From the human T2T-CHM13v2.0 reference genome, Homo sapiens, in the NCBI RefSeq assembly GCF_009914755.1, contig NC_060930.1: a stretch of DNA of 64,000 nucleotides; one strand, written 5' to 3'. A program made the translations under genes and the position numbers. Below the pieces are notes generated by a model that did no database searches, was not told where the DNA came from, and saw nothing but the letters and a program-made list of their open reading frames with translations. Shown here one piece after another: positions 134 to 2,187 of the stretch. Each line of letters opens with the position of its first letter. The first letter of the stretch is position 1.

Positions 134-1609
134 TAGTAAAAATGAGAAACTGAAGCCAGCCCAGAGAAGTTGAGAGAATGATCCATAGTCATCCACAAAA
201 ATGTGTAAGTAAGGGGCAAGACTCACATATTTCTGAGCAGTGAATATTAATGTATTTCTGAACACTTTTTCTCCTTAACTCTTAAAGACATGCTGTGAGC
301 CATCAGTATTTTTCTAGTCATAATTTTTAGGAGCTAAAATCTCAGTGGTGGTAAGGGCCAAAATAAATAAGCACATGAAAGACAAGGAACATGTGAATAT
401 GTGTAATAGGAACAGTCATATGAGCATCCCTCTATAAACCCTTGACTTGGCAAATAACCGAGCTGTTCTGGTTCAATAGCGCCACCTAGCATCCAGACAT
501 AGAACTCTATGACCTAATATTAACCCATTACCTTCTCCCTTCCTAGCGACTTGAAAACTCATGTGTCCAATCCTTTTACCTTGTGTTTTAAATACTTTCC
601 ATGACTAGCACTACATTAGTATTCATTTTCAACACGTTTCCATTACAAATGTAAACACTGGAGCCACAGTAGGGAATTTACTAGACTTTTGTGGGCTGCC
701 TTAAGAATATGGTCACCAACTATTACAAAGGAAAAATATGTAACAAATTCCAAACGAGTGACTTAAATCCTAACTTTGAGGATTTAAGTTCATTTATAAG
801 CTAAGTGCTTTGTTTGGAATATTTATACTTAAATAGTTTTATAAACAATCACAGAGTACACATTTAAATATTATGCTTTTTTTTTTTACTATGCATGAAT
901 GATAAATTAGACCTCCCATTAGAAGGATGGTAGTGTGCTCACTGATTTCATTGACGTTGCAGTTTTCAATTTTGAGGATATTTGCTAGAAAATGATAACA
1001 AATATGTAGAAGAAAACTTTTAAATAGTATGCTACAGAAATAATTCAAATTTTAATCCATCAATAAAAATATCAGCCTGAGTTCTATACTAAATAATAAA
1101 AGCTTGGCCTATTTATAATAAAGAACAGTTATTCTTTAAGGAAAGGACATTGAGTTGGGAGTTAGGAGGAATTTCTAGTTCTTTGTCTGCCATGGGTCTG
1201 CCCATATGACCAGGGGCAAATCCAGTTTTCAAGTGGATGGTCTTTAAGATCTTATTATTCTAATACCAGTGTATCATGTAGAATGTTTTAAGGCTGCTTG
1301 TTCTGTCTTTTGTTACTTAGCACAATTATGGGGTGCTTTTACCCCCTCAAAAATATTCCTAGGCAGTCCCCATTGCCTTAGTAATCCTCAAGTTTAGTTG
1401 TGGGGGTGGTCTCCACCTCTTCGTGTCCTCTAGGACAGGATGAAATCCTAGCTGGAGAGTTCCTCCTTCAGAATGTGTTCTTCCCTGGAGCTGCTGATGC
1501 TCAAGTGATCAAGACAGGGGTCCCAACTCCAACTCTCTGGTCACAATTTCCATCCCTCTCTCTTCATAACACACACACACACACCTGTGGAGAAGACAGT
1601 ATGTCATAA

Positions 1610-1644
1610 TGCAGTCAAATGCTCTACCACTGAGTTATCCCCCC
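1610..1644 (-). pseudogene. Retroposed 5' half of tRNA-Cys(GCA), tailless
   Basis: The minus strand reads GGGGGGATAACTCAGTGGTAGAGCATTTGACTGCA. This is 33/35 identical to the recalled human tRNA-Cys 5' half GGGGGTATAGCTCAGTGGTAGAGCATTTGACTGCA. It ends at the anticodon, with no T-arm or acceptor 3' strand. Confidence 0.9.
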
Positions 1645-1647
1645 ATC

Positions 1648-1946
1648 TTTTTTTTTTTTTTTTGAGACAGAGTTTCACTTTTGTTGTCCAGGCTGGAATG
1701 CAATGGCACGATCTCGGCTCACTGCAACCTCTGCCTCCTGGGTTCAGGCCATTCTCCTGCCTCAGCTTCCCAAGCAGCTGGGATTACAGGCTCCCACTAC
1801 CATGCCCAGCTAATTTTTGTATTTTTGGTAGAGACGGGATTTCACCATGTTGATCAGGCTGGTCTTGAACTCCTGACCTCAGGTGAGCCACCTGCCTCGG
1901 CCTCCGAAAGTGCTGGGATTACTGGCGTGATCCACCGCGCCCGGCC
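1648..1946 (-). mobile_element. Full-length AluS (Sq/Sx-like), fused at its tail to the tRNA-Cys half
   Basis: T16 tract, both arms, ends ccgcgcccggcc. Direct repeat agtatgtcataatg at 1598-1611 and 1948-1961. Confidence 0.95.
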
Positions 1947-1947
1947 T

Positions 1948-2187
1948 AGTATGTCATAATGATTAGAGCACAGGCTCTGAGATAGATAGCCCGCGTGCTA
2001 GACCCCCTCCTCCACTTAACTGCATAACCAGAGGCAAGGTATAGCCCCTCTAAGCCTCAGTTTCCCCATCTGGATAAGATGCATAAATAATCTTATGTAC
2101 TTCATAGGTTCTTGTGAGTCTTGCATGATCAATCCATGTAGAGTCCTTAGCCCAGCCTTACTATATGGTGAGTGTTCAGTAATTAGC
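1948..2187 (+). mobile_element. MIR (head interrupted by the Alu-tRNA insertion)
   Basis: Head agtatgtcataatgattagagcacaggctctg and core ctctaagcctcagtttccccatctg. Confidence 0.75.

What the first reader, a model, noticed from the sequence alone, without database searches (positions are those of the whole stretch)
1598..1961. Chimeric retroposon: Alu poly(A) joined to an anticodon-cleaved 5' tRNA-Cys half inside one TSD
Seen: the minus strand reads TSD(CATTATGACATACT)-A-full Alu-A16-GAT-GGGGGGATAACTCAGTGGTAGAGCATTTGACTG(CA)-TSD. The tRNA piece starts at mature position 1 and stops exactly at the GCA anticodon, and its last 2 nt overlap the TSD. The TSD does not start with the A-run expected from priming on an Alu tail. 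Removing the insert restores a continuous MIR head. Known: 5' halves of tRNA-Cys are produced by anticodon-loop cleavage (angiogenin, 5'-oligo-G tiRNAs), L1 can retropose tailless tRNA fragments, and U6/L1-type chimeras usually carry the small RNA 5' and the poly(A) element 3'. Inference: the order here is reversed. L1 RT may have primed on a germline tRNA half and then jumped to an Alu RNA tail; alternatively a Pol III read-through or ligated Alu-tRNA RNA was copied. This would be a fossil of tRNA halves acting as starter templates, and a genomic decoy for tRF/piRNA read mapping.
Basis: partly seen in the sequence, partly recalled or inferred. Interest (0 to 1): 0.8.

Follow-up and report, generated by a model that had tools for sequence, protein, structure and literature searches.

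The report
Alu fused to tRNA-Cys piece
An old retrotransposon insertion in a human intron carries a whole Alu joined to the first 35 bases of a cysteine tRNA inside one pair of flanking repeats, which suggests the copying enzyme started on the tRNA and then hopped onto an Alu RNA.

Summary
On the minus strand, a perfect 14-nt direct repeat (1948-1961 and 1598-1611) encloses A, a full Alu, A16, GAT, and 35 nt that match positions 1-35 of tRNA-Cys-GCA genes with 2 mismatches.

This is not a one-off. A 25-mer from the piece has 100 genome hits and none in the control. About 69 are truncated, tail-less tRNA-Cys retrocopies with direct repeats right at their ends. Three of these, including this one, instead have a whole Alu plus poly(A) between the 5' repeat and the tRNA piece.

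The 3' junction here, where the repeat starts with the CA of the anticodon, is the most common type in the family. No source locus with this junction exists in the genome.

Best reading (about 0.75): one L1-driven insertion. Reverse transcription started by short pairing in the tRNA anticodon loop, ran to base 1, added 3 nt, then jumped to the poly(A) end of an Alu RNA.

A pre-cleaved "tRNA half" is possible but not needed. Many family members share more bases with the tRNA beyond the anticodon.

This is a new variant of known chimeric retrocopies and is old (the Alu is about 11% diverged). No primate comparison was possible.

The parts
1948..1961 (-). 5' copy of the target-site duplication (CATTATGACATACT on the minus strand)
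   Evidence: 14 of 14 identical to 1598-1611.
1947..1947 (-). One extra A between the TSD and the first base of the Alu. It is probably a non-templated addition at the end of the Alu copy.
1664..1946 (-). Full-length dimeric Alu body (283 nt), of AluS type by its closeness to an AluS-like majority consensus
   Evidence: both arms match 7SL RNA. The subfamily name is recalled, not tested.
1648..1663 (-). Alu poly(A) tail, A16
1645..1647 (-). GAT filler between the poly(A) tail and tRNA base 1
   Evidence: GAT is not the upstream triplet of any of 29 full-length tRNA-Cys copies. Fillers of 0-7 nt are usual at the 5' end of simple tRNA-Cys retrocopies.
1610..1644 (-). tRNA-Cys-GCA positions 1-35 in linear count, ending with the anticodon GCA. 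The last CA (1611-1610) is shared with the TSD.
   Evidence: 33 of 35 identical to gene copies, with the last 25 nt identical.
1598..1611 (-). 3' copy of the target-site duplication
1596..2195 (+). Host element: an old MIR SINE on the plus strand, interrupted in its tRNA-like head by the insertion. The limits are approximate and set by eye.
   Evidence: Based on my recollection of the MIR consensus. Weak tool support comes from nhmmer matches of the script-built empty site to other MIR-like copies (E 0.007-0.24).

Best explanation
This is a single L1-mediated target-primed reverse transcription event that used two RNA templates in succession.
1. The plus strand of the window was nicked at ...CATAATG/ATTAG....
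2. The terminal TG of the nicked DNA paired with C35-A36 in the anticodon loop of a tRNA-Cys-GCA molecule. This is how the tail-less tRNA-Cys retrocopy family generally starts.
3. The reverse transcriptase copied the tRNA to base 1 and added about 3 nt (GAT on the sense strand).
4. Instead of joining the upstream target end, it jumped end-to-end onto the 3' end of the poly(A) tail of an Alu RNA.
5. It copied the Alu to its first base and added one more nucleotide.
6. The second strand was cut 14 nt away, which gave the TSD.

Shown: the anatomy, the shared TSD, membership of the tRNA-Cys tail-less family at the 3' junction, recurrence of the architecture, and the absence of a source locus.

Inferred: the jump itself, the enzyme (L1 ORF2p), and whether the tRNA was intact or already cut.
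For: - Anatomy and perfect 14-nt TSD around the composite only.
- The tRNA copy lies between the poly(A) and the 3' TSD, so on one cDNA strand it must have been made first (read directly from the sequence).
- Genome census: the 25-mer has 100 hits at up to 3 mismatches and 0 in the reversed control. Of these, 28 extend into the 3' half of the tRNA and 72 do not. By eye, 3 of the 72 are decayed full-length copies. In 56 of the 72 the script finds a TSD. In 52 of those 56 it lies within 7 nt of tRNA base 1. In L022 the distant match is low-scoring and spurious. In 3 (L007 = this locus, L001, L015) it lies 281-350 nt upstream, with a whole or near-whole sense Alu plus A-tail in between.
- The three chimeras have different TSDs, fillers, tRNA variants and Alus, and unrelated flanks, so they are independent events.
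- The 3' junction here (TSD starts with CA of GCA) is the modal class, 25 of 56.
- The junction 29-mer is unique at up to 3 mismatches.
- In vitro, ORF2p jumps templates, efficiently on poly(A) RNA and at a low level with Alu RNA (PMC7617806, passages).
- 452 Alu/LINE-1 chimeras with a full sense Alu on the 5' side are reported (PMC13174262, passages). The same acceptor is used there.
Against: - The nick site (AATG/AT on the nicked strand) is a poor match to the L1 endonuclease consensus as I recall it.
- No orthologous empty or intermediate site could be examined.
- GAT has no demonstrated origin.
- Junction-pattern searches found no poly(A)-adjacent copies for Lys/Ala/Tyr-type, Thr, Ser, Gln or Phe tRNAs. 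Outside tRNA-Cys the class is therefore unproven, though those patterns needed exact motifs and would miss decayed copies.
- Two of the three chimeras lie 25 kb apart on chr2, which is unexplained.
- An RNA fused before reverse transcription would leave the same DNA.
Confidence: 0.75

Rival explanations
1. The two RNAs were already joined before reverse transcription. This could be by ligation of an Alu RNA 3' end to a tRNA 5' end, or by Pol III read-through from an Alu into a tRNA-Cys gene lying 3 nt downstream. The fused RNA was then copied once, primed in the anticodon loop.
For: It would give the same DNA product. RNA ligation is a published model for U6/LINE-1 chimeras (PMC13174262, passages). 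In L015 the triplet GGA between the tail and the tRNA is a leader shared by other copies of that subfamily, so a precursor tRNA was involved there.
Against: No locus in this genome has the junction. The pattern of A7, a 10-20 nt gap and the tRNA-Cys D-arm finds only this locus, L015 and a simple insertion, L005. None of 29 full-length tRNA-Cys copies has GAT upstream. Three chimeras with three different junctions would need three separate sources. As I recall, RtcB-type ligation needs a 3' phosphate and a 5' hydroxyl, which is the opposite of an A-tail 3'-OH and an RNase P-made 5' phosphate.
Confidence: 0.12
2. Two independent insertions that happen to abut. Either a tail-less tRNA-Cys piece inserted first and an Alu later landed exactly at its 5' edge, or the piece landed exactly at the end of an existing Alu tail.
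For: A-tails of Alus are favoured L1 targets (recalled knowledge). One tRNA-Cys half did insert inside an Alu (L024).
Against: Neither part has a TSD of its own, and the only repeat encloses both. An insertion into an A-tail would be flanked by A-rich repeats on both sides, as in L005, not followed directly by the outer TSD. The same exact architecture occurs three times.
Confidence: 0.03
3. This is the first reader's specific version: the first template was a pre-cleaved 5' tRNA-Cys half (angiogenin-type cut in the anticodon loop) acting as a free starter template. It shares the template jump with the best explanation and differs only in the state of the tRNA, so its odds are conditional on that explanation.
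For: The piece ends at the anticodon, and C35-A36 is a CpA step, which I recall as the preferred angiogenin site. PMC13174262 (passages) also reads tRNA pieces in LINE-1 chimeras as halves. At this locus only CA is shared with the TSD, so nothing shows RNA beyond A36.
Against: Across the family the TSD start matches tRNA bases past the cut. CAGA occurs in 9 of the 25 TSDs that begin with CA, and AGA in 6 of the 9 that begin at A36. Overlaps reach 7 nt. A leader-bearing subfamily runs on to GATCAAGA. Noll 2015 found no matching truncated RNAs for other tail-less classes and favours internal priming (PMC5322556, passages).
Confidence: 0.3

Closest known systems
Tail-less tRNA retropseudogenes (Schmitz et al. 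2004; Noll et al. 2015, PMC5322556)
   Same: The tRNA-derived copy starts at base 1. It has no A-tail at its 3' end. The TSD abuts the 3' end with a few bases of microhomology, and the target is A/T-rich. This locus has the modal tRNA-Cys 3' junction.
   Different: The 5' end of the tRNA copy is joined to the poly(A) tail of a full Alu rather than to the upstream target copy. Schmitz 2004 was not held and is known to me only through citing passages and recall.
Chimeric retrocopies made by L1 template switching (U6/LINE-1 and Alu/LINE-1; Buzdin-type chimeric retrogenes; PMC13174262, PMC4476161)
   Same: Two unrelated RNA copies lie in the same orientation inside one TSD. The 5' partner is complete up to its own 3' end. 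A full sense Alu as 5' partner matches the 452 reported Alu/LINE-1 chimeras.
   Different: The 3' partner, which is the first template, is not a polyadenylated L1, Alu or mRNA. It is a tail-less tRNA piece, so no poly(A) lies next to the 3' TSD. The published census looked only at sequence attached to the 5' end of LINE-1.
tRNA-half/LINE-1 chimeras (21 loci, PMC13174262)
   Same: The tRNA part is about half length (1-37) and is co-inserted with another retroelement inside one TSD.
   Different: In those loci the tRNA piece sits on the 5' side, mostly antisense to the LINE-1, and twin priming is proposed. Here it sits on the 3' side, in sense with an Alu, which twin priming cannot produce.
3'-truncated snRNA pseudogenes made by internal initiation ('template choice', Doucet et al. 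2015, PMC4476161)
   Same: Reverse transcription starts where a single-stranded RNA segment pairs with the nicked target DNA.
   Different: Those are snRNAs rather than tRNA, and the passages I read describe no second template.

Membership tests
L1-mediated (TPRT) retrocopy | Target-site duplication of about 7-20 bp enclosing the insert | tested here: met
   Perfect 14-nt direct repeat at both ends of the composite.
L1-mediated (TPRT) retrocopy | Nick at a TTTT/AA-like endonuclease site, so that the TSD begins with A's | tested here: not met
   The nicked strand reads ...CATAATG/ATTAG and the TSD begins CATTAT. The consensus itself is recalled, and also appears in passages of PMC5322556. Other tRNA-Cys tail-less copies show T-rich bases before a TSD that starts CA or A.
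L1-mediated (TPRT) retrocopy | Poly(A) next to the 3' TSD | tested here: not met
   The A16 run is internal, and the tRNA piece abuts the 3' TSD.
Tail-less tRNA retropseudogene | tRNA-derived sequence from base 1, truncated at the 3' end, without an A-tail | tested here: met
   33 of 35 identity to the 5' part of tRNA-Cys genes, ending at GCA.
Tail-less tRNA retropseudogene | Microhomology between the start of the TSD and the RNA at the breakpoint | tested here: met
   CA is shared. This is the same register as 25 of 56 family members.
Tail-less tRNA retropseudogene | TSD directly flanking both ends of the tRNA piece | tested here: not met
   The 5' TSD copy lies 303 nt upstream, with Alu, A16 and GAT in between.
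Template-switch chimeric retrocopy (U6/L1 or Alu/L1 type) | Two unrelated RNA copies in the same orientation, with one shared TSD and no TSDs of their own | tested here: met
Template-switch chimeric retrocopy (U6/L1 or Alu/L1 type) | The 3' partner is a polyadenylated L1, Alu or mRNA copy on which TPRT started | tested here: not met
   The 3' partner is the tail-less tRNA piece.
Template-switch chimeric retrocopy (U6/L1 or Alu/L1 type) | Co-insertion in one evolutionary step (orthologues either empty or fully filled) | not testable with these tools
   No other primate genome is held.
Functional tRNA-Cys gene | Complete cloverleaf with T-arm and acceptor 3' strand | tested here: not met
   ARAGORN finds 0 genes, Rfam gives no tRNA hit at E<=1, and only 35 nt are present.
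5' tRNA half (angiogenin-type tiRNA) as template | RNA 3' end at a defined cut in the anticodon loop, with no template bases beyond it | tested here: inconclusive
   At this locus only CA overlaps the TSD. Across the family, overlaps often extend to G37-A38 and beyond. The RNA end chemistry cannot be tested.

The most novel reading that the evidence does not exclude
Alu-plus-tail-less-tRNA composites form a recurrent class of 'tRNA-first' chimeric retrocopies that my five literature searches did not find described. In about 4% (3 of about 69) of tRNA-Cys loop-primed events, the L1 reverse transcriptase reached the tRNA 5' end and then captured an Alu RNA by the very end of its poly(A) tail. 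If so, these loci are natural records of in vivo end-to-end template jumping onto poly(A) 3' ends. They would show that poly(A) is needed to capture the template, not to start synthesis. A bolder version is that the tRNA copy acts as a bridge that lets an Alu-loaded ORF2p use a nick lacking T's.
Probability: 0.5. Interest if true: 0.55.

Novelty: new variant of a known kind. Interest (0 to 1): 0.45.

Why it matters
The locus gives a genomic read-out of the order of template use by the L1 reverse transcriptase. Initiation on a non-polyadenylated structured RNA by 2-4 nt of pairing was followed by a jump to the 3' end of an Alu poly(A) tail. This links two separately described phenomena, tail-less retrocopies and chimeric retrocopies. 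It also suggests that published chimera censuses, which look only at the 5' side of LINE-1, miss a class.

There are two practical points. The 35-nt piece and about 69 similar copies are near-perfect genomic decoys for mapping 5' tRNA-Cys fragments. The insert also sits 13 nt upstream of the acceptor of the last exon of UST-AS2. None of this suggests a cellular function for the element itself.

Tried and rejected
- ARAGORN and Rfam at E<=1 gave no tRNA call for the half. Identity was therefore established against genomic tRNA-Cys genes instead.
- The Rfam hits mir-1268, mir-3135 and mir-1285 are Alu-derived and below their gathering scores, so I ignored them.
- Source-locus search: the junction 29-mer is unique in the genome.
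- Generality searches used poly(A), a gap and tRNA motifs. Cys/Lys/Ala/Tyr-type motifs found only L015. The Cys D-arm found only L015, L005 and this locus. Thr, Ser, Gln and Phe found nothing. These patterns need exact motifs and an intact A-run, so absence is weak evidence.
- blastn of a script-built empty site against held sequence found no MIR copy spanning the junction. nhmmer found one weak spanning match.
- Schmitz 2004 is not held.
- Paralogy between the two chr2 chimeras is rejected. Only Alu-to-Alu matches and the tRNA piece align.
- Twin priming is rejected because both parts have the same orientation.
- Five literature searches found no description of an Alu on the 5' side of a tail-less tRNA piece. 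Supplementary tables of PMC13174262 and PMC5322556 were not opened and could list such loci.

Full report
**Observation.** Read on the minus strand, the region is: CATTATGACATACT (1961-1948), A (1947), a 283-nt Alu body (1946-1664), A16 (1663-1648), GAT (1647-1645), a 35-nt tRNA piece (1644-1610) and CATTATGACATACT again (1611-1598). The last CA of the tRNA piece doubles as the first CA of the repeat.

The repeat finder reports the 14-nt repeat as perfect, with 350-nt spacing. The only other direct repeats in 601 nt are the Alu's own left/right arm similarity and a 13-nt Alu/MIR chance match. Both Alu arms match 7SL RNA in Rfam. ARAGORN finds no tRNA gene and Rfam reports no tRNA at E<=1, as expected for half a tRNA.

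**Identity of the short piece.** The window's genome can be searched. A 25-mer from the piece, ending with GCA, has 51 hits at up to 1 mismatch and 100 at up to 3, with 0 in the reversed control. These include the known tRNA-Cys clusters on contigs 7 and 17.

Against 29 full-length copies, the 35-mer differs at 2 positions (T6>G, G10>A) from a variant present 5 times, and at 3 positions from the commonest variant. It is therefore tRNA-Cys-GCA from base 1. None of the 29 full-length copies has GAT at -3 to -1, so GAT is not a leader of any extant gene.

**The family it belongs to.** I fetched all 100 places and classified them.
- 28 continue at least 30 nt into the 3' half of the tRNA.
- 72 do not. 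By eye, 3 of these 72 (the second hit in L034, L067 and L086) are decayed full-length copies in the contig 7 cluster. That leaves about 69 truncated copies.

A script found a direct repeat for 56 of the 72, or 56 of 71 with a slightly different cut-off. The other 15-16 mostly show degenerate repeats by eye, which I did not count.

In 52 of the 56 the 5' repeat lies within 7 nt of tRNA base 1. These are simple tail-less tRNA retrocopies of the kind credited to Schmitz 2004 in passages of PMC5322556 and PMC4476161. I could not read Schmitz 2004 itself. One further case (L022) is a spurious low-score match.

**Recurrence.** In three cases the 5' repeat lies 281-350 nt upstream: this locus (L007), L001 and L015. 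Printing them shows the same architecture each time.
- L001 (contig 2, 128,766,217): a repeat of about 16 nt with one mismatch, a full Alu, an A-rich tail followed by a (TA)n run, a tRNA-Cys piece ending in GCA, then the repeat.
- L015 (contig 2, 128,791,285): an 18-nt repeat with one mismatch, a near-full Alu, A11, GGA, a tRNA-Cys-like piece running to GATCAAGA, then the repeat.

The three have different repeats, fillers and tRNA variants. Their Alus differ from an AluS-like majority consensus of 28 held Alus by 10.6%, 13.4% and 18.4%. The flanks of the two contig 2 loci share nothing but Alu and the tRNA piece. They are independent events, about 3 of 69 truncated copies.

**What the 3' junction says.** Across the 56 copies with a repeat:
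- The repeat begins 2 nt before the end of GCA in 25, so it starts with CA. It begins 1 nt before the end in 9.
- The overlap between the start of the repeat and the tRNA sequence at the breakpoint is at least 2 nt in 44 of 56. About 3.5 would be expected if the bases were independent (my arithmetic).
- Of the 25 that begin with CA, 9 continue CAGA, matching tRNA bases C35 to A38. Of the 9 that begin at A36, 6 read AGA.
- Three overlaps reach 7 nt.

Bases before the repeat are often T-rich. This pattern fits pairing of the 3' end of the nicked target with the single-stranded anticodon loop. It is the internal-priming model favoured by Noll 2015 for tail-less copies and by Doucet 2015 for truncated snRNA copies.

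So the 'stop exactly at the anticodon' is the register in which this family starts. It is not in itself evidence for a pre-cut half. At this locus only CA is shared, so the state of the tRNA is open. I put a pre-cleaved half at about 0.3, conditional on the main model.

At the 5' junction, simple copies carry 0-7 filler bases. A 3-nt GAT is therefore ordinary.

**Mechanism.** The tRNA copy lies between the poly(A) and the 3' repeat. DNA synthesis on the cDNA strand runs from the 3' repeat into the insert, so the tRNA was copied before the Alu. Both parts have the same orientation, which excludes twin priming, the model proposed for the published tRNA-half/LINE-1 chimeras.

The simplest account is an end-to-end template jump from the tRNA 5' end to the 3' end of an Alu poly(A) tail. 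Published work is consistent with this:
- Purified ORF2p jumps templates efficiently on a poly(A) RNA, and at a low level with Alu RNA (PMC7617806, passages).
- 452 Alu/LINE-1 chimeras with a full sense Alu on the 5' side are reported (PMC13174262, passages).

**Rivals.**
- A fused RNA made before reverse transcription (ligation or Pol III read-through) cannot be told apart from the DNA alone. However, no locus with this junction exists, and three different junctions would need three sources. Odds about 0.12.
- Two abutting independent insertions would leave separate repeats, and an insertion into a tail would be flanked by A-runs, as in L005. Odds about 0.03.

**Limits.**
- No other primate genome is held, so the single-step claim rests on anatomy and recurrence.
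- The nick site is a poor match to the L1 endonuclease consensus (recalled).
- Motif searches for poly(A)-adjacent copies of other tRNA families found nothing beyond L015. Those searches require exact motifs.
- The MIR host is identified from my recollection of its consensus, with only weak nhmmer support.
- The closeness of the two contig 2 chimeras (25 kb) is unexplained.

**Comparison and novelty.** The parts are known: tail-less tRNA retrocopies, L1 template-switch chimeras, Alu as a 5' partner, and tRNA halves in LINE-1 chimeras. The combination is what I did not find in five full-text searches: a tail-less tRNA piece as the first template, on the 3' side, with a complete Alu captured by its tail. 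The one systematic census looked only at the 5' side of LINE-1. I did not open the supplementary tables.

I rate this a new variant of a known kind, with interest 0.45. It is a neat natural record of template order and of jumping onto poly(A) ends. It is not a new system and has no sign of function.

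Noticed in passing
Genome-wide; loci L001-L100: tRNA-Cys-GCA has a large family of about 69 truncated, tail-less retrocopies. Most end at GCA, with the TSD starting CA or A. 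Microhomology with the anticodon loop is at least 2 nt in 44 of 56 copies with a detectable TSD. By contrast, the Phe-GAA 26-mer has only 26 hits in all.
   Followed up: partly
L015, L045, L079, L092, L096, L100 (also L061, L095, L080, L085); possible source L086: A subfamily of tRNA-Cys-like retrocopies carries a GGA leader before base 1 and a TTGGACT variant, and runs on to GATCAAGA before the TSD. This looks like copies of a leader-bearing precursor from one source gene. A decayed full-length copy in the contig 7 cluster (L086) has GGA upstream and the same variant.
   Followed up: partly
L001 (G000:C2:128766217) and L015 (G000:C2:128791285): The two other Alu+tRNA-Cys chimeras lie only about 25 kb apart. 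They have unrelated flanks, TSDs, Alus and tRNA variants. This is far closer than chance would suggest, and I have no explanation.
   Followed up: partly
window 1585-1611 (minus strand): The 3' TSD ends 13 nt upstream of the annotated acceptor of UST-AS2 exon 2 (AG at 1586-1585, exon from 1584). The pyrimidine tract is the antisense MIR 5' end. TGAC motifs in the TSD (A at 1604) and in the tRNA piece (A at 1615) sit at branch-point distance. Exon coordinates come from the hub's table, and the branch-point reading is inference.
   Followed up: no
window 1569-1584 (minus strand): UST-AS2 exon 2 begins with a (GT)8 microsatellite directly after the acceptor.
   Followed up: no
L024 (G000:C7:2653706): A tRNA-Cys half is inserted inside another Alu at its middle A-rich linker, with a TSD of about 10 nt (AAAAATTAGCC). 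This is an example of an independent insertion into an Alu, and it looks quite different from the chimeras.
   Followed up: no
L051, L006, L071: The two variants of this locus recur singly in other independent copies: G at position 6 in L051, and A at position 10 in L006 and L071. Whether these are chance mutations or reverse-transcription errors at particular tRNA positions is open.
   Followed up: no
window 1638-1952: NCBI's repeat mask (hub table) covers the Alu, the tail, GAT and the first 7 nt of the tRNA piece, and leaves the other 28 nt unmasked. The piece would therefore attract tRNA-fragment reads.
   Followed up: no
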